The notes: generated by a model not told the origin, from the sequence alone. DNA of 64,000 nt from Acidimicrobiales bacterium (GCA_038253125.1 JBBSHM010000004.1:2043-66042), one strand, 5' to 3'. Shown: positions 33,515 through 64,000, counted from the stretch's first letter. Numbers and translations are program-made.

Positions 33515-34711
33515 GTGAGAGTTCGACCCCAAGCCTCGGCGCACTCCTCCGTCGCCGCCCGGCGGTTGGCGCTCGAGGCCCTCCACCGCATCGACGACGG
33601 GGCATACGCCAACCTCGTCACCCCGGCGCTGCTGGACCACTCCCGCCTGACCTCGCGCGACCGCAACTTCGTCACGGCCATCGCCTACGGCGCCACCCGC
33701 ATGCGCCGGGCACTGGACCACCTGGTCGACCGCCACGTGCGCAGACCCACCGACGACGAGGTGCGGCGGGTGCTGCGCCTAGGCGTCTTCGAGCTCGCCT
33801 ACCTGAGGACGCCGGCTCACGCCGCGGTGAGCCAGGCGGTGTCCCTGGCTCCCGAACGGGCTCGCGGCTTCACCAACGCCGTGCTGCGCAAGGTGGCCGC
33901 CGACGTGGCCGCCGGCATCACCTGGCCCGACCCGGCCACCGAGCTGAGCTACCCGGACTGGGTGGTGGCGACCTTCACCGAGGACCTGGGCGAGGCGCAC
34001 GCCCTGGCCGCCCTGCGGATCATGGACGAGCCGGCCGAGGCCACCGAACGTGACGACGGCTACACCCAGGACCTGGCCAGCCAGTGGGTGGCCGAGGAGG
34101 TCGGTGCGCTGCCCGGCGAGCAAATCCTCGACCTGTGCGCCGCCCCCGGCGGCAAGGCGACCCTGCTGGCCGAGATCGGCGCCGTGGTCACCGCCGCCGA
34201 CCTCAGCGTCCGGCGGTCCCTGCTGGTGGCCGAGAACGCCCAACGGCTCGGTGCCCCTGTCGCCGGGGTCGTCGCCGCCGACGGCCTGGCCGCACCGTTC
34301 CGCCCGCGCTCGTTCGACCGGGTGCTGGTCGACGCCCCGTGCTCGGGCCTCGGCGTACTGAGGCGGCGGCCGGACGCCCGGTGGCGGGTGCAGCGCTCCG
34401 ACGTCTACGACCTGGCCCGCCTGCAGAACCGCCTGCTCTCCGCCGCCGCCGGTCTGGTGCGGCCGGGTGGCGTGCTGATCTACAGCGTCTGCACCCTCAC
34501 GGCCGCCGAGACGATGGGGGTCGACCTGCCGCACCTCGAGGCGCTGCCCCCGCCCTCGGACCCGTGGGAGCCCTGGGGCCGAGGCGCCCGTCTGCTGCCC
34601 CAGGCCCGCGGCACCGACGGCATGTTCCTCCTGCGGCTCCGGCTTCCGGAAGCCCCGGCTGCGCCCCGGCGACCCCCGGCCCGCGTGCGCCGGGCACGAA
34701 ACCGACGATGA
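33515..34711 (+). CDS. rsmB: 16S rRNA (cytosine-C5) methyltransferase RsmB/Sun
   Basis: NusB-like N-terminal domain, LDLCAAPGGKAT, DAPCSGLGVLRRRPD and IYSVCT motifs. Consistent fmt-rsmB synteny. Confidence 0.9.
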   Translation: MRVRPQASAHSSVAARRLALEALHRIDDGAYANLVTPALLDHSRLTSRDRNFVTAIAYGATRMRRALDHLVDRHVRRPTDDEVRRVLRLGVFELAYLRTPAHAAVSQAVSLAPERARGFTNAVLRKVAADVAAGITWPDPATELSYPDWVVATFTEDLGEAHALAALRIMDEPAEATERDDGYTQDLASQWVAEEVGALPGEQILDLCAAPGGKATLLAEIGAVVTAADLSVRRSLLVAENAQRLGAPVAGVVAADGLAAPFRPRSFDRVLVDAPCSGLGVLRRRPDARWRVQRSDVYDLARLQNRLLSAAAGLVRPGGVLIYSVCTLTAAETMGVDLPHLEALPPPSDPWEPWGRGARLLPQARGTDGMFLLRLRLPEAPAAPRRPPARVRRARNRR

Positions 34712-35187
34712 GCGGGTCGGGCCTGCGGGCCCGGGTGCTGGTCGTGTCGAGCGGCGTGGCCGCCGGCACCCGGCAGGACCGGGGCGGCCCGGCCCTGGTC
34801 GAGATGCTCGCCGCTGCGGGTTACAAGGTCGACAAACCGGTGATGGTGGCCGACGGGATCCCGGCTGTGACCTCCGCCCTGCGCGCCCTCACCGCCGACT
34901 TCGCCGGTCTGGTCGTCACCACCGGCGGCACCGGCTTCTCCCCGACCGACGTCACCCCTGAGGCCACCCTTGACGTCATCGACCGCCACGCCCCGGGCCT
35001 GGCCGAGGCCATGCGGGGCGTCGACCCCCGAGGCCGCCTAGGCCGAGGCGTGTGCGGCACGGCGGGCCGGGCGCTGATCCTCAACTGCCCCGGCAGCCCC
35101 GGCGGCGCCGTCGACCAGCTCCAAGCCGTCATCGACATCCTCCCTCACGCCCTGAGCCTCCTGGCCGACACGCCCACCGAGCACTAG
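34708..35187 (+). CDS. mogA: molybdopterin adenylyltransferase / MogA-MoaB family protein
   Basis: VVTTGGTGFSPTDVTPEAT and LPGSPGGA motifs. About 159 aa, with ATG 34708 overlapping the rsmB stop. Confidence 0.82.
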   Translation: MSGSGLRARVLVVSSGVAAGTRQDRGGPALVEMLAAAGYKVDKPVMVADGIPAVTSALRALTADFAGLVVTTGGTGFSPTDVTPEATLDVIDRHAPGLAEAMRGVDPRGRLGRGVCGTAGRALILNCPGSPGGAVDQLQAVIDILPHALSLLADTPTEH

Positions 35188-35240
35188 GGCACGGTCGTCG
35201 GGTTCTGGCGCGCCAGCTGACGCCGCCGAGCGGCGATGTT

Positions 35241-35356
35241 GTGTCTTCGGCCCGCTGTCGGGCCATCGGTTGCCGGCGCGCCGGGGTAATCTCCGGTGCG
35301 CCGTTCGCTGCGCCGAGAGGGTCGACGGAGGCGCCGAAGCCGGATGGGATCAACCG
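35241..35356 (+). ncRNA. FMN (RFN) riboswitch-like leader, divergent
   Basis: Lies immediately upstream of ribD. The 3' half resembles the RFN core (CCGGGGTAATCTCCGG hairpin; CGACGG...AAGCCGGATGGGA). The 5' half (GGGUGAAAUUCCC-type helix) is not clearly recognisable. Confidence 0.4.
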
Positions 35357-35370
35357 ACGACGAACCGGTG

Positions 35371-36378
35371 ATGCGGCGGGCGCTGGCGCTCGCTGATGCG
35401 GTACGTCCGCGGCCTTCACCCAACCCGTGGGTCGGCTGCGTGATCGTCTGCGCCGACGCCAGCGAGGTCGAAGGGTCGACCCAGAAACCCGGAGGGGATC
35501 ACGCCGAGGCCCAGGCGCTGCGTCGGGCCCGGGCGGCCGGACTCGATCTGAGGGGGGCGGTGGCCTTCACCACCCTGGAGCCGTGCAGCCACCACGGGCG
35601 CACCCCCCCCTGCGCCGACGCTCTGGTCGAGGCCGGTGTTGGGCGCGTGGTGGTCGGGGTGCTCGACCCGGATCCCCACGTCTGCGGGCGTGGGGTCGAG
35701 CGTCTGCGGGCCGGCGGCCTCGAGGTCGTGGTAGGCGTCCTCGGAGGCGAGGTGGAGCACCAGCTGGCCGCCTACCTCCACCACCGGCGCACCGGCAGGC
35801 CCTGGGTGACGCTGAAGCTGGCAGCCACACTCGATGGCCGCACGGCGGCGCCGGACGGATCGTCGCGCTGGATCACCGGCGATGAGGCCAGGGCCGACGC
35901 CCACCGGGAGCGGGCCGAACACGACGCCGTCCTCGTCGGCGCCGGCACGGTGCGGGCCGACGATCCAAAGCTGACGGTGCGTTACGCCGAGGGACCCGAG
36001 CCGCTCCGCGTCGTCCTCGGCTCGGCTCCCCCCACCGCTCGGATCCACCCGTGCCTCGAGCTCTCGGGCGACCTGGGTGAAGTCCTCGGTCAGCTGGGCG
36101 GCAAAGGCGTGCTGAGCGTGCTGGTGGAAGGGGGCGCCACGGTGGCCCGGGCCTTCCACTCAGCAGGGCTGGTGAACCGCTACCTGGTCTACCTGGCGCC
36201 CGCACTGCTCGGCGGCGACGACGGCCGGCCCCTGTTCGCCGGCGCCGGGGTGCCGACCATCGCGGAGGTGTGGCGGGGCCACATCGGCTCTGTCGGGCGG
36301 CTCGGAGCCGACCTGCGCATCGAGGTCCTCCCGGGCCGCGACGAGCCCCACCTGAGCCCTCCGGAGCGGGTGAGCTAG
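35371..36378 (+). CDS. ribD: bifunctional riboflavin biosynthesis deaminase/reductase
   Basis: Deaminase zinc motifs HAE and LEPCSHHGRTPPC, and a reductase half with TLKLAATLDG. ATG 35371 is preferred. Confidence 0.93.
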   Translation: MRRALALADAVRPRPSPNPWVGCVIVCADASEVEGSTQKPGGDHAEAQALRRARAAGLDLRGAVAFTTLEPCSHHGRTPPCADALVEAGVGRVVVGVLDPDPHVCGRGVERLRAGGLEVVVGVLGGEVEHQLAAYLHHRRTGRPWVTLKLAATLDGRTAAPDGSSRWITGDEARADAHRERAEHDAVLVGAGTVRADDPKLTVRYAEGPEPLRVVLGSAPPTARIHPCLELSGDLGEVLGQLGGKGVLSVLVEGGATVARAFHSAGLVNRYLVYLAPALLGGDDGRPLFAGAGVPTIAEVWRGHIGSVGRLGADLRIEVLPGRDEPHLSPPERVS

Positions 36379-43513: not shown

Positions 43514-44560
43514 GTGAACCGGTTTGACGAGCTGCCCGACGCCGTGCTCCAGCTCGACGCTGGTGCGGTGATCGTCGAAGCCAACGCCGTGGCCCACCGT
43601 CTTCTGGGCGGTGACCCGCTAGGGCGTGCCATCAACGACGTCTGCGCCCCCCGCACCCCCGACGGCCACCCCCTCTGCCCACGAGGGCTGCCCGCCGCGT
43701 CACGCCTGCGCAGCGTCACCCGCATCGTCGATCAGCCCGTGGTGCTGCACACGCCGGCCGGTGAGGTGGCCGTCCAGGCCGCCGGCTCCTACCTGCGCGA
43801 CGACGACGGCCTCCTGCGGGGTGCGGTGCTGTCGCTGCGGTCGCCGGGCCGCCGGTCCCACCCGGCCGCCAACCCGATCGAGATCGTGAGCACCGTCAGC
43901 CACGAGCTGCGCAGCCCCCTGACGTCGGTGAAGGGCTACACGTCGTTGCTGCTCAACCGATGGGACCGGCTCAAGGACGAGCAGAAGAAGATGATGCTGG
44001 AGCAGGTCAACCACGACGCTGACCGCGTCACCCGGCTGATCACCGAGCTGCTCGACATCTCCCGCCTGGAGCTCGGCCGCCTGGTGCTGCGCCGACAGCT
44101 GGTCGATGTCCGCGACGTCGCCGCCCTGGTGGTTGAGAAGGTGGCCATGGACCAGCCGGCCCTGGATGCCACGATCGTGGTGGCCGACGACGTCACCAAG
44201 GTCTACGCCGACCCCGACAAGGTCGAGCAGGTGCTCACCAACCTGGTCGAGAACGCCTGCAAGTACGGATCGCCCACCGGCCTGTGCATAGCGGTGGAGC
44301 TGGGTGACGGCTGCCTCGTCGTCTCGGTGGCCGACCAGGGCGAGGGCATCTCGGCCGCCGACCTGCCGCAGGTGTTCCGCAAGTTCTTCCGCCGCGACCT
44401 CTCCAAGCCGACGGGCACCGGCCTCGGCCTGTGGATCAGCCGCGGCCTGGTCGAAGCCCACGGCGGCCGCCTCACAGCCACCTCGACCGAGGGCGTCGGC
44501 ACCACCTTCACCTTCACCCTCCCACTGGTCGACCTCGACGAGCTCCTGTCCCGTGGCTGA
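43514..44560 (+). CDS. soluble sensor histidine kinase (PAS-like N-terminus, HisKA, HATPase_c)
   Basis: H-box SHELRSPLTSVKGY, N-box NLVENACKYG, G-boxes DQGEGI and GTGLGLWI. There are no TM segments and no adjacent response regulator. Confidence 0.88.
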   Translation: MNRFDELPDAVLQLDAGAVIVEANAVAHRLLGGDPLGRAINDVCAPRTPDGHPLCPRGLPAASRLRSVTRIVDQPVVLHTPAGEVAVQAAGSYLRDDDGLLRGAVLSLRSPGRRSHPAANPIEIVSTVSHELRSPLTSVKGYTSLLLNRWDRLKDEQKKMMLEQVNHDADRVTRLITELLDISRLELGRLVLRRQLVDVRDVAALVVEKVAMDQPALDATIVVADDVTKVYADPDKVEQVLTNLVENACKYGSPTGLCIAVELGDGCLVVSVADQGEGISAADLPQVFRKFFRRDLSKPTGTGLGLWISRGLVEAHGGRLTATSTEGVGTTFTFTLPLVDLDELLSRG

Positions 44561-45653
44561 GCCCGCCGGCTCCGGAGGCAGAGGAGAGCCCGCCGGCTCC
44601 GGAGGCAGAGGAGAGCCCGCCGTCCCTGGTCTCGACGCCCTTGTCGCCGATGCGACCGAGGCCGTTGCCGCGGCGGCGACCCTTGAGGGCCTCCGCGCCG
44701 TCGAGGCTGACCTGATCGGCAAGAAGGGGCGGATACCGGGCCTCAACCGCACGCTCGGCCAGATGGCCGCCGAGGAGCGCAGGGTGGCCGGCGCCGCCAT
44801 CAACGAGGCCCGTCGGGCGGTGGAGGCGCTGGTGGAACGGCGGCGAGGCGACCTGGCGGCCGACGAGCGGCGGGCCCGGCTGGCCGCCGACCGCCTCGAC
44901 CTCACCGAGGCGGCGCCCGACCCGTGGGCCCGTGGTCACCTCACGGTCGTCACCCAGACCCGCGACCGGCTCGAGGACGTGTTCGTCGGCATGGGCTTCG
45001 AGGTGGCCGAGGGGCCGCTGGTCGAGACCGACTGGCACAACTTCGAGGCCTTGAACATCCCCGTCGGCCACCCGGCCCGCAGCGGGTTCGACACCCTGTA
45101 CTTCGACGTCGGCGAGCCCGAGAGCATCCTGCTGCGCCCCCACACCTCCCCCGTGCAGGTGCGGCTCATGACGGCGAAGCTGCCGCCCATCTACGCGGTG
45201 ATGCCCGGAACGGTGTACCGCAAGGACACCCCGGACGCCCGCCATCTCCCCACCTTCAACCAGATCGAGGGCCTCGTCGTCGACCGGGGGATCACCTTCG
45301 GCGACCTAGCCGGCACCATCGAGGCGTTCACCCGCGCCTTCTTCGGCCCCGACATCACCTCACGCCTGCGGCCGGCCAGCTTCCCCTTCACCGAGCCGTC
45401 GGCTGAGTACGAGATCACCTGCCCCATCTGCCGGGGCGCCGGCTGCCGCACCTGCAGCCAGACTGGCTGGATCGAGCTGGGCGGCTGCGGCATGGTCCAC
45501 CCCAACGTGTTCCGGGCCGTCGGCATCGACCCCGAGGAGTACAGCGGCTTCGCCTTCGGCTTCGGCATCGACCGCCTGGCCCAGGTCTTCCACGCTATCC
45601 CCGACATGCGGGTGTTGCTCGACAACGACCTGAGGTTCGCGACGCAGTTCTGA
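44553..45653 (+). CDS. pheS: phenylalanine--tRNA ligase alpha subunit
   Basis: LEGLRAVEADLIGKKG, HPARS, RPHTSPVQ and the FPFTEPS class II motifs. The only in-frame start upstream of the conserved N-terminus is GTG 44553, which would translate the 27-bp repeat. The start is therefore uncertain. Confidence 0.88.
   Translation: MAEPAGSGGRGEPAGSGGRGEPAVPGLDALVADATEAVAAAATLEGLRAVEADLIGKKGRIPGLNRTLGQMAAEERRVAGAAINEARRAVEALVERRRGDLAADERRARLAADRLDLTEAAPDPWARGHLTVVTQTRDRLEDVFVGMGFEVAEGPLVETDWHNFEALNIPVGHPARSGFDTLYFDVGEPESILLRPHTSPVQVRLMTAKLPPIYAVMPGTVYRKDTPDARHLPTFNQIEGLVVDRGITFGDLAGTIEAFTRAFFGPDITSRLRPASFPFTEPSAEYEITCPICRGAGCRTCSQTGWIELGGCGMVHPNVFRAVGIDPEEYSGFAFGFGIDRLAQVFHAIPDMRVLLDNDLRFATQF
44559..44623. 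repeat. 27-bp tandem repeat, locus C (2 full units plus a partial)
   Basis: GAGCCCGCCGGCTCCGGAGGCAGAGGA x2, then GAGCCCGCCGT. It begins inside the kinase TGA stop (44558-60). Confidence 0.9.
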
Positions 45654-45671
45654 TCTGCCCCGAACCTCGCC

Positions 45672-47636
45672 TCAACCGTCCTTGCGGCGCCGCGCCCAGA
45701 CCACATCCCGTAGCTCCCGCGGCAGCGAACTCGCCGTACGGCCCAATAGCGAGTAGTACTCGACCTGGCGCCTCGCTATGAAGGTGTCCGCGTGGTCGGG
45801 TCCGAGGCTGCGTTCGCTGTCGGTGAGGAGTTTGCGGTAGAGGTCGAGGGCGGTGTGGAAGTCCCCGGTTGCGCCGGTGTAGTAGGCGACTTGGTGTCGT
45901 GTGTCGAGGGTGTCTGGGTGGTCGGGTCTGAGGCTGCGTTCGCTGTCGGTGAGGAGTTTGCGGTAGAGGTCGAGCGCGGTGTGGGGGTCCCCGGTTGCGC
46001 CGGTGTAGTAGGCGACTTCGTATCGTGTGTTGAGGGTGTCGGGGTGGTCGGGTCCGAGGGTGCGTTCGCGGTCGGGGACGAGTTTGCGGTAAAGGTTGAG
46101 GGCAGTAAGGGGGTGTCCGGTTTGACCGGTGTTGAAGGCAACACCGTGTCTGATTTCGAGGGTGTGGGAGTGGTCGGGTCCAAGGATGCGTTCGCAGTCG
46201 GCGAGAAGTCGGCGGTAGTCACCGAGAGCCCTTCGTCTGTCCCCAGCACGCCCGGTGGCGAGTGCGAGGTTCGCTCGGGTCAGGAGCGTGTCGGGGTGGT
46301 CGTCGCCAAGCTCGGCAAGCTGGGATGACACGAGAGCCTGGAGCATCGGGAGGCGGGCCTCGATGTCACGGGACGCCATCCGTTCCCAGACGCCGGCGTC
46401 GTCGATGTGTTGTTCCAGGCGGGAGGCGACCAGCACGTTCATACGGTCGGGAGCGAGGCCGGGTGGGCGTTGCACCAGGCCGGGAAGGACCGAGCGTTCC
46501 AGGCCGGCGGGCGTGAAGAGGTGGACGAGGATGTCGACCAGGGCGCGGACCCGGCCGCTGCCGTCGGGGGTGCGCATCAGCAGGTAGAGGTTGTACAAGC
46601 GCTCGGACAGCTCGTAGCGCTGGCGGCCCTCGTCGTGCTCGACGGCTTGGACGGCGCCGCGGCGGACGAGGCGGCCGAGGTGGACGCTGACCTGGCTGCT
46701 GGTCATCCTCGTGCGCTCGGCCACCTCGGCGGCGGTAGCAGGGGCCCAAATGTCGGCCAGCGTCACGTACACCTTGCGTTCGACGACGGGGAGCGCCTCG
46801 ATGTTGGCCTTGAAGTAGGCGGTGTACTCGTCGATCAGCAGTTCGAGGTCGTGGCGCAGGTCGCGCAGGTCGGGGCTGGTCGAGAAGCGGGCCATCACCG
46901 TGAGCAGCCGGGGGTTGCCGCCGGTCAGGATGCGGACGGGGACGATCCGGTCGCCGGCCAGATCCGCGCCAGTCAGCTTCTGCCAAAGAAGGCGGGCCGA
47001 GGCGTCGTCCAGCGGGTGCAGGTCGATGCGGTGGAAGAAGCCGTAGAACGCCTCGCCGGCCTCCTCCACCGCGGCGAAGGTCGTCACGGCCGTGGCCACC
47101 AGCAGGAGGTTGTTCTCGGTCTGGAGGGCCTGGCGCAGCGACCAGCCCTCGGTGGCCCCCATCTGGTCGTCCAGGAGCATGTCGAGGTTCTCGGCCAGCA
47201 ACAGCAGGCGCTGGCCCCGGGATCTCGCCGCCGCCAGCAGCCGCTGGAGGGCCAGCGTCTCCAGCCGGGCCGGGTCACGCTCGGCCTGGAGGGCTTGGTG
47301 CTGAGCGGTCAGGTCGGCATCGCCCAGGCTGACGGCCAGCTGGTGGAGGGCGGACATCCACAGGTCGCCGACCGAGGTGGCCTGGTACAGCTCCTCGCGC
47401 AGCACCAGGGGCAGCCAGCGTTTTGCCAGATCGTCGTTTTCGGCGACGCTGATGGCCAGCCGGCGGAGCAGCAGCGACTTGCCCATCCCTCGCTGGCCGA
47501 TCACCAGGGCGTGGCGGGGCGGGTCATCCTCGGTCAGGTGCGCCACCAGCTCGTCCAGCTCGTGGTGGCGGACCACGAAGCGGCTGGTCACCTCGTCGTC
47601 GCCGAGGTGGGTGATGTTGTGGACGGCCAGTGTCAT
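45672..47636 (-). CDS. STAND-like P-loop ATPase with winged-helix segment and C-terminal TPR (TPR_10/12-type) array
   Basis: Walker A GQRGMGKS, Walker B LLLLAENLD, and a wHTH-like segment AEVAERTRMTSSQVSVHLGRLVRRGAVQ. At least 5 repeats of LGPDHPDTL..R...A...G..G....AL.LYRKLL.D.ER. The ATG overlaps the upstream stop (ATGA). Confidence 0.8.
   Translation of the reverse strand: MTLAVHNITHLGDDEVTSRFVVRHHELDELVAHLTEDDPPRHALVIGQRGMGKSLLLRRLAISVAENDDLAKRWLPLVLREELYQATSVGDLWMSALHQLAVSLGDADLTAQHQALQAERDPARLETLALQRLLAAARSRGQRLLLLAENLDMLLDDQMGATEGWSLRQALQTENNLLLVATAVTTFAAVEEAGEAFYGFFHRIDLHPLDDASARLLWQKLTGADLAGDRIVPVRILTGGNPRLLTVMARFSTSPDLRDLRHDLELLIDEYTAYFKANIEALPVVERKVYVTLADIWAPATAAEVAERTRMTSSQVSVHLGRLVRRGAVQAVEHDEGRQRYELSERLYNLYLLMRTPDGSGRVRALVDILVHLFTPAGLERSVLPGLVQRPPGLAPDRMNVLVASRLEQHIDDAGVWERMASRDIEARLPMLQALVSSQLAELGDDHPDTLLTRANLALATGRAGDRRRALGDYRRLLADCERILGPDHSHTLEIRHGVAFNTGQTGHPLTALNLYRKLVPDRERTLGPDHPDTLNTRYEVAYYTGATGDPHTALDLYRKLLTDSERSLRPDHPDTLDTRHQVAYYTGATGDFHTALDLYRKLLTDSERSLGPDHADTFIARRQVEYYSLLGRTASSLPRELRDVVWARRRKDG
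45792..46295. repeat. 126-bp tandem repeats (4 units) encoding 42-aa TPR modules
   Basis: Units start at 45792, 45918, 46044 and 46170. Units 1 and 2 differ at about 8 of 126 positions by hand count. Units 3 and 4 are progressively more diverged. Confidence 0.9.
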
Positions 47637-48865
47637 GGACGGTCTCGGCGGTCCGCCACCGCGACGAAGCCCAGCTCATTGCCCTGGCGCCACCAGTCCC
47701 GCACCAGCCGGGACCGGAACTGCCAGCCCGCCGCGCTCCGCGTGAGGTACGCGTCGTGCTCGAGGATCTCCAGCACCTCCCGCAGAGCGCCGGCCCGCTG
47801 CGAGGCGTTCTCGACCAGCTGGTCGGCCAGCCAGACGGCGTCGGCCGGCTCCAACACCCCGACGACGGCGGCCTGGGTGAGCAGGTCACGGGCCAGGCGG
47901 AGGTCGTCGCCCTCGCCGAGCACCGTGCGGAGGCGGGTTTCCAGGTGGAGGAGATGAGCCTTCACTGCGCTGGTCAGGAAGGGGCCTCGGTAGACCCGGG
48001 CGATGTCGTCACCGGAGACCCGCCGGTCACCGCGGCGAGTGACGTCCCGCCGCACCTCGTCCATCAGGAGCTGCACGTGGTAGGGCACCCCCAGTCCGAG
48101 GAGGCTGTGGACCGAGGCCACCGTGGCCGGCGAGAGCTGCAGGCCGGTGGCTCGGGCCAAGGCGGCCACGGCCCCGTTGGTGGTCTCCTCGTCCCAGGCG
48201 TCGATCGGGTAGGCCCGAAGGTGGGTGATCATCCCGGTCAGCCCAGCCCGGTGGAGGATCGGCTCCAATCCGACTGAGCCGCTGAGGAGCCAGGTCACGG
48301 CCGGCACGCCATCGGCTGCGGCCCGGAGCACGCCGAGGAACAGCTCGGCTTCCGCCGGGTCCCGCTTCAGGATCCGGTCGACCAGCAGCGGCAGCTCGTC
48401 GATGGCGAGCACCGTCCGGTGGCCGGCCGCAGCCAGAGCCCCGATGATGGCCCGGGCGTCGTCGCGCCAGCTTCCCGCCATGGCGGCTTGCAGCTCGACC
48501 TTGACGACCCCGACATCGACCTTCTCGATCCGGTCGAGACCGGCACCCAGGCGCTTGCCGAACCAGGCCCGGATCCGGCTCCAGAAGGCGGCGTCGGCGC
48601 AGTTCGCCGCGGCGATCGTGGCGAACATCTCGGTGGGGTTGGCGTGCTGCTCGACGTCGACGAAGAGCGTGCCCGTGCTCGGCCCCATGGCGTCCAGCAC
48701 GCGGTGGACGATACTGGTCTTGCCGACCCGTCGAGGTCCGGTGAGCAGGACGCCCTGACCGCCGGCCAGGTAGTCGGCGATCTCGGCAACCTCCCGCTCG
48801 CGATCCCAGAACCGCGCCCCGCCGGCGTAGTTGCCCAGGGCGGGTTCGAGCCGCGGGCCGTCCAT
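47633..48865 (-). CDS. AAA/Arch-ATPase-like P-loop ATPase (about 410 aa), function unknown
   Basis: FWDREREVAEIADYL..GVLLTGPRRVGKTS (Walker A), VLAIDELP (Walker B), and a helical C-terminal half. ATG 48865 is preferred over the track start at 48973. Confidence 0.75.
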   Translation of the reverse strand: MDGPRLEPALGNYAGGARFWDREREVAEIADYLAGGQGVLLTGPRRVGKTSIVHRVLDAMGPSTGTLFVDVEQHANPTEMFATIAAANCADAAFWSRIRAWFGKRLGAGLDRIEKVDVGVVKVELQAAMAGSWRDDARAIIGALAAAGHRTVLAIDELPLLVDRILKRDPAEAELFLGVLRAAADGVPAVTWLLSGSVGLEPILHRAGLTGMITHLRAYPIDAWDEETTNGAVAALARATGLQLSPATVASVHSLLGLGVPYHVQLLMDEVRRDVTRRGDRRVSGDDIARVYRGPFLTSAVKAHLLHLETRLRTVLGEGDDLRLARDLLTQAAVVGVLEPADAVWLADQLVENASQRAGALREVLEILEHDAYLTRSAAGWQFRSRLVRDWWRQGNELGFVAVADRRDRP

Positions 48866-48881
48866 CTCCCCAGCGTAGCCG

Positions 48882-48910
48882 CAACAGAACTGTTGGCAAC
48901 AGTGTTGTTG
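48882..48910. promoter_or_regulatory. tandem 14-bp palindromes (operator-like) in the divergent ATPase/pheT intergenic region
   Basis: CAACAGAACTGTTG (perfect 6-2-6) is followed after 1 nt by CAACAGTGTTGTTG (one mismatch). The local DNA is AT-richer. Confidence 0.45.
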
Positions 48911-48943
48911 TGATTGGGAACAGGGTTCGGGTCGGGCCTTGGA

Positions 48944-48957
48944 GGCATGTTCATGCC
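48944..48957. promoter_or_regulatory. perfect 6-2-6 palindrome GGCATGTTCATGCC upstream of pheT
   Basis: Perfect inverted repeat nested between GGAGGC (48941-46) and GCCTCC (48966-71), about 22 nt before the pheT ATG. Confidence 0.4.
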
Positions 48958-48978
48958 CGCCGCTAGCCTCCACACGCC

Positions 48979-51399
48979 ATGCGGGCCCCCCTGTCCTGGC
49001 TGCGGGACTTTGCGCCGTTCGACCTCGATCCGGCCGAGCTGGGACGGGTGTTCGACGACCTCGGCATGGTGGTCGAGGGCGTAGAGCGGGTGGGGGAGGG
49101 GCTCGAAGGCGTCGTCCTCGGACGGGTGCTCGAGGTCAGCGCCATCGAGGGGGCCCGGGTCCGGCGCACCCGGGTCGACCTGGGCGACGAGCACGGCCAC
49201 GACGTCCAGATCGTGTGCGGGGCGGCCAACGTGGCAGCCGGTCAGTTGGTGCCGGTGGCCGTGGTGGGCGCCGTCCTGCCCGGCGACTTCCGAATCGCCG
49301 TGCGCAAGGTCTTCGGCGTCGAGTCGAACGGGATGATCTGCTCGGCCGTGGAGATCGGCCTGGGCGACGACGCCGACGGGATCCTGGAGCTGGGCGAGGG
49401 CCTCGGCGCGCCCGGCCAGCCCTTCGCTGTCGCTATGGGCATCGAGCCTGACGTGGTCTACGACCTGGCCATCGAGACCAACCGGCCTGACGCCAACTGC
49501 ATCGCCGGCATCGCCCGCGACGCCGCCGCCCGCCTGGGTCTTCCGTTCACCCTGCCCGCCCCGCCGCCGCTCGCCCCCGACCTCCCCCCGCCAACGGCTG
49601 TACCCCAGGTGGCCTGCCCCGACCTGGCCCCCCGCTTCGGCGTGGCCGTGATCGAGGGGGCGGCCATCGGCCCCAGTCCGGCGTGGCTGGCCCGCCGCCT
49701 CACCCTGGCCGGCATGCGGCCCATCTCCAACCTGGTCGACATCTCCAACTACGTGATGCTCGAGCTGGGCCAGCCCACCCACCCCTACGACCTCGACCGG
49801 CTCCCCGGCGGCGGGCTAGGCGTGCGGGTCGCCGGACCCGGCGAGGCCCTCACCACCCTCGACGACGCCGAGCGCCACCTCGGCGGCGGCCCCAGCCCCG
49901 ACGTGGTCATCACCGACGCCACCGGCACTCCGGTCGGCATCGCCGGGATCATGGGTGGGGCCTCGTCCGAGGTCCACGACGGCACCACCCGGATCCTGCT
50001 CGAGGCTGCCCACTTCGACCGCCTCACCATCGCCAAGACCTCCAAGCGGCTGGGCCTGCGCAGTGAGGCCTCGGCCCGCTTCGAGCGCGGCGTCGACCCG
50101 CTCGGCATCGAGACGGCCATGGCCCGCTGCGCCCAGCTGGCCGCCGAGGTCAGCGGAGCCAGGGTCACCGCCGTGGCCCTCGTCGAGTCGGCCGAGCACG
50201 TGCCGGTGCGGCCCACCATCGCCCTTCGCACTGCCCGGGTGAACGCCCTGCTCGGCACCGATCTGGATGACGCCCGGATAGCCGGCCTGCTCGGCCCGAT
50301 CGGCTTCAAGGTCGAGCCCGTCGAGCCCGGCCTCCAGCAGGTCACACCGCCCAGCTTCCGCCTCGACGCCGAGCAGGAGGTGGACGTCGTCGAGGAGGTC
50401 GCCCGCCACCTGTCCTACTCGAGCATCCCCCGCACGGTGCCGCGCTCGCCGCTGGTGGGAGGCCTCTCCGCCCACCAGCGGGGTCGCCGCCAGGTCCGGG
50501 ACGTGCTGGTAGGCCTCGGCTGCGTCGAGGCGGCCACCGGCCTGCTCCTCGGCCCCGGCGATCACGGACAGGCGGGCCTCGTCGTCTACGAGGACGGGGC
50601 CCTGCGGGCCACCGACCCGCTGGCCAAGGAGGAGTCGCTCCTGCGCCGCTCGCTGCGTCCCGGTCTGCTGCGGGCCGTGGGCTTCAACCTCGACCGCCGC
50701 CAGGACCGCGTGCACCTGTTCGAGGTCGGAGTGGTCTTCTCACCTTCGGACGGAAGCCGACCGGTCCAGCGGGTCGACGCCGAGCGCTGGCTCCCCGACG
50801 AGACCGAGGTCGTTTCCTGCGTGCTGGCCGGGCACGGGGCGGATGCCACCACGGCCACCCGCCTGTGGTGGGCGCTGGCCAGCGCCCTGCGCCTGCTCAA
50901 CCCCCGCCTGGAGGCGTGCCCCGACGCCGCCGGCCTTCACCCCACTCGGACAGCCGCCGTCGTCGGCGCTGGCGGAGCGCCCCTCGGCCTGGTCGGCGAG
51001 GTGGACCCCGGCGTTCTCAGCGGCCTCGGCATCGCCGGCCGGGTCGGTCTCGTCGAGCTCGACCTGCGGCTCCTCCTGGCCGAGCCCCGACGGCCGGACG
51101 AAGCTGTACCCGTCAGCCGCTTCCCGAGCAGCGACGTCGACCTTGCCTTCTCGGTCCCCGAGCCGGTGCCCGCCGCCGAGGTGGAAGCGACCCTGCGGGC
51201 CGGCGCCGGCGGCCTCCTGGAGCGGGTGGCCCTCTTCGACGCCTACCGGGGCAACGGTGTGGCCGACGGTTACCGCAGCCTGGCCTTCCGCCTCCGTTTC
51301 GCCGCTCAGGACCACACCCTCACCGACAGCGAAGTGGCCGGCGCCCGTCAGGCCTGCATCACCGCAGTGAGCACTGCCCACGCAGCCACGCTGCGTTAG
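48979..51399 (+). CDS. pheT: phenylalanine--tRNA ligase beta subunit
   Basis: MRAPLSWLRDF N-terminus, tRNA-binding, B3/4 and B5 regions, and a C-terminal FDAYRG...SLAFRL anticodon-binding motif. 806 aa. Confidence 0.95.
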   Translation: MRAPLSWLRDFAPFDLDPAELGRVFDDLGMVVEGVERVGEGLEGVVLGRVLEVSAIEGARVRRTRVDLGDEHGHDVQIVCGAANVAAGQLVPVAVVGAVLPGDFRIAVRKVFGVESNGMICSAVEIGLGDDADGILELGEGLGAPGQPFAVAMGIEPDVVYDLAIETNRPDANCIAGIARDAAARLGLPFTLPAPPPLAPDLPPPTAVPQVACPDLAPRFGVAVIEGAAIGPSPAWLARRLTLAGMRPISNLVDISNYVMLELGQPTHPYDLDRLPGGGLGVRVAGPGEALTTLDDAERHLGGGPSPDVVITDATGTPVGIAGIMGGASSEVHDGTTRILLEAAHFDRLTIAKTSKRLGLRSEASARFERGVDPLGIETAMARCAQLAAEVSGARVTAVALVESAEHVPVRPTIALRTARVNALLGTDLDDARIAGLLGPIGFKVEPVEPGLQQVTPPSFRLDAEQEVDVVEEVARHLSYSSIPRTVPRSPLVGGLSAHQRGRRQVRDVLVGLGCVEAATGLLLGPGDHGQAGLVVYEDGALRATDPLAKEESLLRRSLRPGLLRAVGFNLDRRQDRVHLFEVGVVFSPSDGSRPVQRVDAERWLPDETEVVSCVLAGHGADATTATRLWWALASALRLLNPRLEACPDAAGLHPTRTAAVVGAGGAPLGLVGEVDPGVLSGLGIAGRVGLVELDLRLLLAEPRRPDEAVPVSRFPSSDVDLAFSVPEPVPAAEVEATLRAGAGGLLERVALFDAYRGNGVADGYRSLAFRLRFAAQDHTLTDSEVAGARQACITAVSTAHAATLR

Positions 51400-51411: not shown

Positions 51412-51864
51412 CTAAGCGCCGGCCTCTTCGGTCTCGATCTGGGTGAGGAGGTCGAGGCGGTTCTGGTGGCGGCCGCCTTCGTAGGCGGTGGAGACGAAGA
51501 CCTGGGCGATCTCCAGAGCCACCCCCAAGCCTGTCACCCGGGAGCCCATCGAGCAGACGTTGGCGTTGTTGTGCAGGCGGGCCATCCTGGCGGTGAACTC
51601 GTCGTGGCACAGGGCGGCCCGGCAGCCGTGGACCTTGTTGGCCGCCATCTGCTCGCCGTTGCCGCTACCCCCGAAGACAAAGGCCAGCTCGACGTCCCCG
51701 CCGACCGCGGCCCGGGCGGCGGCGGCGCAGAAGAGCGGGTAGTCGACCGACGCCTCCGAGTCGGTGCCGAGGTCGAGCACCTCGTGGCCCATGCCCCGGA
51801 GGTGGTCGGCCACCTGCTGCTTGAGGGCGAACCCGGCGTGGTCGGAGGCGACGGCGATCTTCAC
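51412..51864 (-). CDS. rpiB: ribose-5-phosphate isomerase B
   Basis: MKIAVASDHAGF.LK, GSGNGEQMAANK and ARMARLHNNANV motifs. Confidence 0.92.
   Translation of the reverse strand: MKIAVASDHAGFALKQQVADHLRGMGHEVLDLGTDSEASVDYPLFCAAAARAAVGGDVELAFVFGGSGNGEQMAANKVHGCRAALCHDEFTARMARLHNNANVCSMGSRVTGLGVALEIAQVFVSTAYEGGRHQNRLDLLTQIETEEAGA

Positions 51865-63330: not shown

Positions 63331-64000
<670 letters not shown>

What the first reader, a model, noticed from the sequence alone, without database searches (positions are those of the whole stretch)
45654..48978. Two overlapping P-loop ATPase genes inserted antisense between pheS and pheT: candidate undescribed NLR-like module
pheS stops at 45653 and pheT starts at 48979. 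In almost all bacteria these genes are adjacent and co-translated (established knowledge). Here 3.3 kb of opposite-strand DNA separates them and carries two genes whose stop and start overlap in ATGA (47633-47636), which suggests a coupled pair.

Gene 1 (47633..48865, about 410 aa) has Walker A GPRRVGKTS, Walker B VLAIDELP and a long helical C-terminal half. Gene 2 (45672..47636, 654 aa) has Walker A GQRGMGKS, Walker B LLLLAENLD, a winged-helix-like segment and at least 5 TPR_10/12-type repeats (LGPDHPDTL...). This is the ATPase-wH-TPR layout of STAND/NLR-like sensors such as Avs, MalT and AfsR relatives.

I cannot see any output or effector domain (nuclease, TIR, protease, LuxR HTH and so on) in either protein. 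I also see no integrase, transposase, tRNA or flanking direct repeat. By eye the TPR-coding part uses more A/T-ending codons than the flanks.

Hypotheses: a two-protein NLR-like sensing module, possibly defence-related, or a regulator pair captured at an essential-gene junction.
Basis: partly seen in the sequence, partly recalled or inferred. Interest (0 to 1): 0.85.

Follow-up and report, generated by a model that had tools for sequence, protein, structure and literature searches.

The report
Self-regulated two-ATPase sensor cassette splitting pheST
Two overlapping ATPase genes sitting backwards between the essential genes pheS and pheT belong to a widespread, apparently undescribed two-gene cassette that carries its own repeated DNA control site and resembles an innate-immunity-type sensor with no recognisable weapon.

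Summary
pheS ends at 45653 and pheT starts at 48979. Between them, on the minus strand, lie gene 1 (47633-48865, 410 aa) and gene 2 (45672-47636, 654 aa), which overlap in ATGA.

Gene 1 is an Orc1/Cdc6-like AAA+ ATPase of the Arch_ATPase type with a C-terminal winged helix. Gene 2 is a STAND-type NTPase (nucleotide-binding, helical and winged-helix domains, arm, TPR sensor) with no effector domain.

- **Obligate pair.** In 69 of 69 testable metagenomic loci, and in every other locus fetched by protein look-up, a gene-1 relative is followed directly by a gene-2 relative, usually overlapping.
- **Own control site.** Tandem 15-bp-phased palindromes (CAACAnnnnTGTTG; window 48882-48910) lie on the cassette promoter. 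They are about 140-fold enriched there and absent from 1.24 Mb of control DNA.
- **No fixed partners.** No third gene recurs, neighbourhoods vary, and nothing in PADLOC matches.
- **Size.** The gene-1 family has at least 1,400 clusters at 50% identity.
- **This copy is not recent.** The ATPase-coding parts have host-like GC3, and a sister lineage has the same pheT junction.

The biological role and output are unknown. I read it as a split, self-repressed STAND/NLR-like sensor switch.

The parts
47633..48865 (-). Gene 1: 410-aa Orc1/Cdc6-like AAA+ ATPase of the Arch_ATPase (PF01637) type. It has Walker A RRVGKTS, Walker B DE, a lid domain and a C-terminal winged helix (about aa 340-400).
   Evidence: ORF. 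Pfam AAA_16, ATPase_2 and nSTAND1, all weak. Profile search of PDB sequences: 2qen at 2e-9, then 2fna. AF2 model pLDDT 92; Foldseek gives 2qen TMt 0.73, then Orc1/Cdc6 and RuvB. Invariant K49, D156, E157, D371, Y373, S385 and W392.
45672..47636 (-). Gene 2: 654-aa STAND-type NTPase without an effector domain. It comprises a nucleotide-binding domain, helical domain, winged helix, arm and TPR sensor, plus a conserved PLPRELRE tail.
   Evidence: ORF. Pfam AAA_16, nSTAND_NTPase5, MarR_2/TrmB and TPR_10/12. AF2 pLDDT 84.6; top Foldseek hit is 6mfv (PH0952 STAND-TPR). Family-wide invariants are H42, G50, G52, K53, E81, E82, N150, R168, T238, G239, G240 and R243.
47633..47636 (-). ATGA overlap of the gene 1 stop and the gene 2 start, suggesting translational coupling.
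   Evidence: The junction is -20 to +7 nt in 65 of 79 related loci; the commonest is a 4-nt overlap.
46602..46787 (-). Winged-helix domain of gene 2 (aa 284-345), MarR/TrmB-like.
   Evidence: Pfam MarR_2, TrmB and HTH_20. PDB profile hit to MarR 2fa5 at E 0.016. AF2 secondary structure H284-294, H302-309, H313-326, E329-333, E339-343.
45741..46340 (-). TPR sensor (aa about 433-632). It includes near-identical 126-nt (42-aa) units at 45783-46218 and has low GC3 (0.77).
   Evidence: TRF: 3.5 copies, 84% match. Direct-repeat family D1. The number of units varies from about 3 to more than 10 among orthologues. GC3.
48882..48910 (.). Operator array: two adjacent 14-bp palindromes, CAACAGAACTGTTG (exact) and CAACAGTGTTGTTG (one mismatch), at a 15-bp period, 17-45 nt upstream of the gene 1 ATG.
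   Evidence: The same array lies upstream of gene-1 relatives in 66 of 82 non-redundant loci. The double unit gave 0 hits in 1.24 Mb of control loci and 98 hits in 62 cassette loci, all upstream of gene 1.
48872..48877 (-). -10-like hexamer TACGCT, 6 nt upstream of the gene 1 ATG. This implies a leaderless mRNA.
   Evidence: Read from the sequence. A TAnnnT hexamer lies 5-8 nt before the start codon in all nine close actinobacterial copies. This is an inference; the consensus sigma-70 scan found nothing.
48964..48969 (+). Candidate -10 hexamer TAGCCT, 9 nt upstream of the pheT ATG. It could give pheT its own promoter now that pheT is cut off from pheS.
   Evidence: Read from the sequence. GCCGCTAGCCTCC..ACGCCATG is conserved in L088. 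Inference only.
48979..51399 (+). pheT, divergent from gene 1 across a 113-bp intergenic region.
44634..45653 (+). pheS (conserved part), convergent with gene 2. The two stop codons are 18 bp apart and no terminator-like hairpin lies between them.

Best explanation
The 3.3-kb segment is one copy of a self-contained, self-repressed two-gene cassette, which I read as a 'split STAND' sensor switch.

**Proposed mechanism**
- Gene 2 is the sensor. It is a STAND-type nucleotide switch whose variable TPR array binds the trigger, probably a protein or peptide.
- Gene 1 is translated in a fixed ratio with gene 2 from the same, probably leaderless, mRNA. It is an Orc1/Cdc6-like AAA+ ATPase with a winged helix.
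- One or both proteins bind cooperatively, as an oligomer, to the 15-bp-phased palindromes that cover the promoter and transcription start. This keeps the cassette at a low level.
- Binding of the trigger to the TPR drives nucleotide exchange and oligomerisation, which changes DNA occupancy. That would cause de-repression and possibly binding elsewhere.

**What is shown**
- The domain architectures of both proteins.
- The obligate pairing and co-divergence of the two genes.
- The operator array and its fixed position at the promoter.
- The absence of any effector domain or third gene.
- The variable genomic location.

**What is inferred**
- Which protein binds the DNA.
- That the array represses.
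- That the TPR is the sensor.
- The nature of the trigger, and everything downstream of it.

**This copy.** It entered the pheS-pheT junction in an ancestor shared with at least one sister lineage. It is now compositionally native, and pheT is left to be expressed from its own short upstream region.
For: **Architecture.** PH0952, the best structural match of gene 2, is a STAND with a TPR sensor and a separate DNA-binding effector domain (PMC6468293).

**Pairing.**
- 69 of 69 testable metagenome loci, plus L001-L007, L088-L090 and L174-L176.
- Junctions are overlapping or within 7 nt in 65 of 79 loci.
- Pairwise identities of the two proteins correlate at r = 0.94.

**Operator.**
- 14.2 units per kb upstream of gene 1 against 0.10 per kb in the background.
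- The double unit gave 0 hits in 1.24 Mb of control DNA and 98 hits in 62 cassette loci, all upstream of gene 1.
- Distant relatives carry variant palindromes at the same 15-bp period.
- In 26 of 29 loci with a recognisable TTGACn..TAnnnT promoter, the first unit starts 0-7 nt after the -10, most often 2 nt. In 18 of them, units also flank the -35.
- In the 64-kb window the array occurs only at 48882-48910.

**Self-contained.**
- No neighbour family recurs in more than 3 of about 70 loci.
- No Pfam family is found in more than 2 of 137 neighbours.
- None of 48 full-length gene-2 relatives has an effector domain.

**Sensor diversification.** TPR units are near-identical and their number varies, while the N-terminal 400 aa stay 53-72% identical.

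**Old, native copy.** GC3 and the L088 junction.
Against: - No experiment or DNA-protein model links either protein to the palindromes.
- Conservation of the two recognition helices did not show which one reads the DNA.
- In canonical STAND proteins the winged helix is part of the nucleotide switch and does not bind DNA. A host factor could in principle bind the array, although its co-variation with the cassette across phyla argues against this.
- The gene 2 Walker B is non-canonical (xEN), so its ATPase activity is uncertain.
- A switch whose only visible target is its own promoter has no evident output.
- Whole genomes could not be scanned for further arrays.
Confidence: 0.5

Rival explanations
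1. It is an anti-phage or conflict (NLR-like, abortive-infection) system. The TPR of gene 2 recognises an invader protein, and the activated complex uses gene 1 as the effector, for example by ATP-driven loading or filament formation on DNA that blocks replication or transcription. Autorepression would keep a toxic system silent.
For: - STAND-TPR layout with structural similarity to Apaf-1, NRC and Avs5.
- Patchy distribution, with at least 7 different genomic contexts among copies that are 58-79% identical.
- Near-identical TPR units of variable number, as in fungal NLRs; Podospora 4y6c is among the top structural hits.
- No conserved target genes nearby.
- Some copies lie next to type I or type IIG restriction-modification genes, DrmMI, SoFic, PDC-S01, and WYL or DUF262 genes.
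Against: - No effector domain in any of 48 relatives.
- No PADLOC model matches beyond the P-loop or the winged helix.
- Most neighbourhoods are housekeeping, with defence-type neighbours in only about 5 of 52 loci.
- Almost absent from viral contigs and plasmids.
- Host-like codon composition, and inherited at the same site in a sister lineage.
Confidence: 0.25
2. It is an ordinary signal-sensing transcription regulator pair, MalT/AfsR-like but split. It would control a distal regulon, or here pheT, in response to a metabolite or stress. The own-promoter array would be only its autoregulatory site.
For: - The operator array sits on its own promoter.
- Both proteins have winged helices.
- Its closest structural relative, PH0952, is a predicted STAND transcription factor, and MalT is a known one.
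- Host-like composition and vertical inheritance.
- In the window the array is 54 bp from the candidate pheT -10.
Against: - No second array within 6-10 kb in any locus, nor in the 64-kb window.
- No conserved neighbouring gene.
- The family is sporadic and changes location, unlike regulators tied to a pathway.
- pheT adjacency is seen only in the window and in L088.
Confidence: 0.2
3. It is a remnant of a mobile element's replication or partition module: an Orc1/Cdc6-like initiator with iteron-like repeats, integrated into the chromosome.
For: - Gene 1 has the Orc1/Cdc6 fold.
- Tandem repeats flank an AT-richer promoter region in many loci.
- The genomic position varies.
Against: - No other plasmid or phage genes, integrase or insertion scars next to any copy.
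- Only 1 weak hit in 72,556 plasmids and 2 partial hits in 2.9 million viral contigs.
- The invariable partner is a TPR-STAND, not a helicase or a partition protein.
- The arrays sit in a fixed register with the -10 element.
Confidence: 0.04

Closest known systems
STAND transcription factors with a TPR sensor (archaeal PH0952; MalT clade; PDB 6mfv)
   Same: Gene 2 has the same order of domains: nucleotide-binding, helical, winged-helix, arm, TPR. 6mfv is its best structural match. A DNA-binding output and cooperative binding to repeated sites are plausible for both.
   Different: PH0952 and MalT carry a fused DNA-binding effector domain, ArsR-like at the N-terminus or LuxR-like at the C-terminus. 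Gene 2 has none. Instead it is always paired with a separate AAA+ ATPase. Its Walker B is xEN.
Arch_ATPase / PF01637 proteins (PABY2304 2qen, SSO1545 2fna) and archaeal Orc1/Cdc6
   Same: Gene 1 shares the AAA+ core, lid and C-terminal winged helix. 2qen is the best match by both sequence profile and fold. Orc1/Cdc6 binds dyad-containing origin boxes with its winged helix and AAA+ domain (established knowledge).
   Different: No function is known for 2qen or 2fna. Many PF01637 members carry a C-terminal DUF234 PD-(D/E)XK domain (PMC3424549), which gene 1 lacks. The Pfam score is below the gathering cut-off (22.4 against 33.2 bits). There is no link to replication.
Bacterial antiviral STAND/NLR systems (Avs1-5, bNACHT)
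   Same: A STAND core with a C-terminal repeat sensor, patchy distribution and a diversifying sensor. EfAvs5 is among the structural hits.
   Different: Avs and bNACHT proteins have an effector domain (nuclease, SIR2, protease, TIR and others), fused or encoded next door. They are single-ATPase systems enriched in defence islands. None of this holds here.
Actinobacterial AfsR/SARP-NB-ARC-TPR and LAL regulators
   Same: Large ATP-binding regulators with TPR_10/12-type repeats that bind repeated DNA sites.
   Different: Those are single proteins with a BTAD/SARP or LuxR DNA-binding domain and an NB-ARC or MalT-type core. No such domains were found. The match to the NCBIfam FxSxx_TPR model covers only the TPR part and is far below its cut-off (104 against 300 bits).

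Membership tests
STAND NTPases (gene 2) | P-loop nucleotide-binding domain followed by a helical domain and a winged-helix domain (the NOD) | tested here: met
   AF2 model. Foldseek hits to 6mfv, Apaf-1, NRC, CED-4 and Avs5. Pfam AAA_16, nSTAND_NTPase5, NACHT (weak) and MarR/TrmB winged helix. GxP-like TGGNPR motif is invariant.
STAND NTPases (gene 2) | C-terminal repeat sensor domain | tested here: met
   TPR_10/12 at aa 433-623. TPR types in 35 of 48 relatives.
STAND NTPases (gene 2) | At least one effector or output domain at one end of the protein | tested here: not met
   Nothing precedes the P-loop region (which begins about aa 20) or follows the TPR except a short tail. The same holds in 48 relatives.
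STAND NTPases (gene 2) | Canonical Walker B (hhhhD[DE]) and ADP/ATP switch behaviour | tested here: inconclusive
   The sequence is LLLLAEN, with N150 invariant. Nucleotide binding and hydrolysis cannot be tested with these tools.
Arch_ATPase PF01637 / Orc1-Cdc6-like AAA+ (gene 1) | AAA+ core with Walker A and B, a lid and a C-terminal winged helix | tested here: met
   Invariant K49, D156 and E157. Fold match to 2qen at TMt 0.73, then 2fna, Orc1 and Cdc6. Profile hit to 2qen at 2e-9.
Arch_ATPase PF01637 / Orc1-Cdc6-like AAA+ (gene 1) | Score above the Pfam gathering threshold for PF01637 | tested here: not met
   22.4 bits against a cut-off of 33.2. Only AAA_16 passes (35.2 against 32.6). Several relatives do carry precomputed PF01637 hits.
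Avs / known anti-phage STAND systems | Match to a defence-system model and presence of an effector | tested here: not met
   PADLOC gives only P-loop or winged-helix fragments at E 1e-4 to 1e-6, for the window proteins and for 10 distant relatives. No effector was found.
Avs / known anti-phage STAND systems | Protection against phage | not testable with these tools
   Needs experiments.
MalT/LAL and AfsR/SARP regulators | Fused LuxR-type HTH or SARP/BTAD DNA-binding domain | tested here: not met
   No GerE/LuxR, BTAD or Trans_reg_C hit in either protein.
Mobile genetic element / genomic island | Integrase or transposase, tRNA target, flanking repeats, deviant composition | tested here: not met
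   No tRNA. No flanking repeats. No mobility genes in 52 neighbourhoods apart from isolated cases. GC3 is host-like except in the TPR.

The most novel reading that the evidence does not exclude
This is the founding example of a new class of bacterial NLR-like systems in which the executioner is not an enzyme. Instead it would be an Orc1/Cdc6-like AAA+ DNA-binding ATPase encoded as an obligate partner. On sensing an invader or stress protein through the fast-evolving TPR, the pair would escape autorepression and act on DNA, by roadblock, condensation or transcriptional reprogramming. That would be an 'effector-less' immune or conflict switch with its own portable operator, present in more than a thousand diverged lineages across phyla.
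Probability: 0.2. Interest if true: 0.85.

Novelty: new variant of a known kind. Interest (0 to 1): 0.62.

Why it matters
**A well-defined unknown.** If the reading holds, this is a large family with no annotation in the libraries searched here. The gene-1 family has 1,413 clusters at 50% identity at E <= 1e-30. It has a crisp, testable definition:
- two translationally coupled ATPases;
- a 15-bp-phased palindrome array in fixed register with the promoter;
- no effector.

**A question it opens.** How can a STAND/NLR-type sensor signal without a fused effector? The cis element gives a direct experimental handle through EMSA, ChIP and reporter fusions.

**A local curiosity.** The window shows that the almost universally coupled pheS-pheT pair can be split by an antisense operon and stay split over evolutionary time. 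pheT then needs its own expression signals.

Tried and rejected
- **Known-family libraries.** PADLOC, NCBIfam and PHROGs scans of both proteins, and PADLOC on ten distant relatives, gave only P-loop, winged-helix or TPR fragments.
- **RNA elements.** Rfam over the whole window found only the 16S rRNA. No leader or riboswitch precedes pheT.
- **Promoters and terminators.** The consensus scan found no promoter. It found one terminator-like site at chance level.
- **Insertion scars.** I searched for target-site duplications and terminal inverted repeats and found none. The window holds no tRNA.
- **Paralogy of the two genes.** hhalign aligns only the P-loop region, so they are not recent duplicates.
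- **Assigning the DNA-binding subunit.** I compared recognition-helix conservation among 31 loci that share the CAACA half-site. The result was inconclusive. Grouping operators by perfect half-sites gave too little power for a covariation test.
- **Close relatives for a presence/absence table.** The genome collection holds nothing closer than 54% PheT identity. Only one short read-assembly contig (L088) comes from a near relative.
- **Taxonomy from cluster names.** Almost none were available.
- **A cultured carrier.** The look-up of the Sorangium gene-2 relative P0128 found no record.
- **Operator pattern in viral contigs.** Most of the 15 hits are coding 15-nt tandem repeats, and none lies next to the cassette.
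- **Literature.** Searches on nSTAND, PF01637/DUF234, STAND+TPR+anti-phage and Cdc6-like found no description of this pair. This was not an exhaustive search.

Full report
**1. Observation**

The ORF list confirms the geometry. pheS ends at 45653 and pheT runs from 48979 to 51399, both on the plus strand; Pfam confirms both. On the minus strand lie gene 2 (45672-47636, 654 aa) and gene 1 (47633-48865 from the ATG, 410 aa), overlapping in ATGA.

The longer reading of gene 1 from GTG 48973 is unlikely. Homologues are 400-414 aa long and align from the ATG.

The quoted Walker motifs are present and conserved. The TPR part contains 3.5 near-identical 126-nt units.

The surrounding region is a core actinobacterial stretch: hisG, infC, rplT, a SpoU methylase, a histidine kinase, pheS, pheT, rpiB, argC, argJ and argB. 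The start of a 16S rRNA gene lies at 63332.

**2. The split junction is unusual**

I fetched 80 pheT loci from species-representative genomes. In 64 of the 68 loci that hold both genes, pheS and pheT are 65 nt or less apart. In the nearest relatives, Acidimicrobiia and Actinomycetota MAGs with 43-54% PheT identity, the gap is 2-49 nt. Larger gaps or unlinked genes occur mainly in Chloroflexota. None of these loci has gene 1 or gene 2.

**3. What the proteins are**

- **Gene 1.** A profile of 43 homologues finds the PF01637-type archaeal ATPases 2qen and 2fna. A confident AF2 model (pLDDT 92) superposes best on 2qen (TMt 0.73), then on Orc1/Cdc6 and RuvB. It therefore has an AAA+ core, a lid and a C-terminal winged helix. 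Many PF01637 proteins carry a DUF234 PD-(D/E)XK domain; gene 1 has none.
- **Gene 2.** Its model (pLDDT 84.6) matches the STAND-TPR protein PH0952 (6mfv) best. Kinesin-light-chain-type TPRs, Podospora 'nearly identical' TPRs, Orc1/Cdc6, Apaf-1, NRC and EfAvs5 follow. [quoted passage not shown] Gene 2 has no such domain.
- **Relationship.** The two proteins are related only around the P-loop.

**4. An obligate pair**

Contig lengths in the two homologue lists already suggested that the genes co-occur. Look-ups showed gene 1 followed by gene 2, with a 4-nt overlap, in five further neighbourhoods.

Relatives at 30-35% identity show the same arrangement. So do relatives at 22-37% identity in 69 of 69 metagenome loci with enough downstream DNA. 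The 11 loci without a partner are all cut by a contig end.

Junctions are -20 to +7 nt in 65 of 79 loci. Pairwise identities of the two proteins track each other at r = 0.94. This fits co-inheritance, although shared ancestry inflates the number.

HMMER against 1.84 billion cluster representatives finds 1,413 gene-1 relatives at E <= 1e-30, nearly all about 400 aa long.

**5. The cassette carries its own cis element**

Reading the DNA upstream of gene 1 in the first loci showed 2-4 tandem copies of CAACAGnnCTGTTG at a 15-bp period. In the window they lie at 48882-48895 (exact) and 48897-48910 (one mismatch). No other good match occurs in the 64 kb.

| Measure | Upstream of gene 1 | Comparison |
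|---|---|---|
| Palindrome units per kb, 82 non-redundant loci | 14.2 | 0.10 elsewhere in the same loci |
| Loci with at least one unit | 66 of 82 | |
| Loci with at least two units | 60 of 82 | |
| Double-unit hits | 98 in 62 cassette loci | 0 in 1.24 Mb of control loci |

All but one of the 98 double-unit hits lie within 260 nt upstream of gene 1. The exception, L150 at -295, probably has a mis-assigned start.

Loci lacking the CAACA motif have other palindromes at the same 15-bp period: TTGACAA.., TTGCAAT.., GACTATA.., and TATATA in Segatella. The site therefore diverges along with the proteins.

Where a TTGACn-N16-19-TAnnnT promoter is recognisable (29 loci), the first unit begins 0-7 nt after the -10 in 26 of them, most often at 2 nt. 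Further units lie upstream of the -35 in 18.

In the nine high-GC actinobacterial copies, a TAnnnT hexamer lies 5-8 nt before the start codon and the array abuts or overlaps it. This suggests a leaderless mRNA.

This geometry is that of a repressor operator. Repression itself, and which protein binds, are inferences. Conservation of the recognition helix did not discriminate between the two winged helices.

**6. Self-contained, with no weapon**

- Among 48 full-length gene-2 relatives, Pfam finds only AAA_16-type NTPase, winged-helix and TPR-class repeats.
- No neighbouring gene family recurs in more than 3 of about 70 loci.
- No Pfam family occurs in more than 2 of 137 neighbours. Neighbours are mostly housekeeping genes.
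- Defence-type neighbours are found in only about 5 of 52 loci: type I and IIG restriction-modification, DrmMI, SoFic, PDC-S01 and mad2/3.
- PADLOC models match neither the window proteins nor distant relatives beyond short fragments.
- The cassette is nearly absent from viral contigs (2 weak partial hits) and plasmids (1 weak hit).

**7. History of this copy**

GC3 of gene 1 (0.91) and of the gene 2 N-terminal part (0.93) equals that of window genes (0.885 +/- 0.038).

A 2.7-kb contig from another sample encodes PheT at 83% identity. It is divergent from a gene-1 orthologue (79%) that is followed by gene 2, with the same intergenic layout. Orthologues at 58-72% identity sit in other contexts: PepX | pair | acyl-CoA dehydrogenase; FtsX | pair; UbiB | pair; Macro | pair; and others.

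The pair therefore relocates on long time-scales. At this junction it is inherited and compositionally native. No scars remain.

pheT now has a 113-bp upstream region shared with gene 1. A TAGCCT hexamer 9 nt before its ATG is conserved in the sister contig and is a candidate -10. pheS and gene 2 converge with only 18 bp between their stop codons and no hairpin. Antisense read-through from pheS is therefore possible, but this is speculation.

**8. Interpretation**

The best-supported reading is a split STAND-type switch. A TPR-sensing nucleotide switch (gene 2) is obligatorily coupled to an Orc1/Cdc6-like AAA+ protein with a winged helix (gene 1). The unit is held down by cooperative binding to phased palindromes on its own promoter.

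Whether its purpose is immunity or conflict, regulation of a distal regulon, or something else cannot be decided with these tools.
- The sporadic, relocating distribution, the fast-evolving repeats and the lack of local targets lean towards a conflict system.
- The missing effector, the housekeeping neighbourhoods and the native composition lean away from it.

I found no description of this pair or its operator in the searchable literature. This does not prove that none exists.

**9. Verdict**

- The STAND/NLR-like reading of gene 2 and the coupled-pair idea are supported.
- 'Recent insertion' and 'defence' are not shown.
- The finding is a new variant of a known kind (STAND signalling modules). 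It is of moderately high interest because it defines a large, untouched family with an experimentally tractable cis element.

Noticed in passing
window 63332-64000 (+): The 5' 698 positions of a bacterial 16S rRNA gene run off the end of the window (Rfam SSU_rRNA_bacteria, 641 bits). This could be used to place the organism, which has no relative closer than 54% PheT identity in the species-representative genome set.
   Followed up: no
window 43514-44560 (+): A cytoplasmic HisKA/HATPase_c histidine kinase with no adjacent response regulator sits between the SpoU-type methylase and pheS. From memory, Streptomyces has a similarly placed orphan kinase (OhkA) next to pheS; I did not test this.
   Followed up: no
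window 48944-48957: A perfect 14-bp palindrome, GGCATGTTCATGCC, lies 7-20 nt upstream of the candidate pheT -10, nested in GGAGGC...GCCTCC. It is not conserved in the sister contig L088 and remains unexplained.
   Followed up: partly
window 44560-44640: Just upstream of the conserved part of pheS, a tandem duplication encodes EPAGSGGRG twice in the extended pheS reading frame. The true pheS start was not determined.
   Followed up: no
L053, L082, L074, L077, L080, L087 (Chloroflexota loci): In several Chloroflexota genomes pheS and pheT are 1.8-2.0 kb apart, or pheS is not within 8 kb upstream of pheT. Splitting of pheST is therefore recurrent in that phylum.
   Followed up: no
L090 1-7740: A distant cassette copy (35% identity) lies beside a type I restriction-modification system (HsdM, HsdS), a 741-aa HATPase_c_3 protein and a Uma2-like gene. 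This is the clearest defence-island-like neighbourhood seen.
   Followed up: partly
L180 282-310; L183 6227-6255; L185 876-904; L186 956-984; L189 1838-1866 (IMG/VR contigs): A few viral contigs hold operator-like arrays of two or three CAACAnnnnTGTTG units with different spacers but no gene 1 or gene 2. In L186 the array sits at the start of a lysis-amidase-like ORF. These could be chance, a phage regulator with a similar site, or a target or decoy. The other ten hits are coding 15-nt tandem repeats.
   Followed up: partly
P0298 and P0326: Two atypical gene-1 relatives turned up. P0298 joins the gene-1 ATPase (aa 1-316) directly to TPR repeats, which looks like a gene1-gene2 deletion chimera. 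P0326 has an N-terminal Schlafen AlbA_2 plus HATPase_c_4 module before a full gene-1 domain. Either could be a gene-calling artefact.
   Followed up: partly
L173 (Segatella copri DSM 18205 plasmid NZ_CP085933.1, record 33590-35637): A cultured organism carries a very distant version: two overlapping 'ATP-binding protein' genes at 20.6% identity to gene 1. A 15-bp-phased TATATA-type array lies upstream, with WYL, DUF262 and IS21 genes nearby. This is a possible experimental model.
   Followed up: partly
window 51412-51864 (-): An rpiB-like ribose-5-phosphate isomerase gene lies antisense between pheT and argC. It is a second minus-strand gene in this otherwise plus-strand core region.
   Followed up: no
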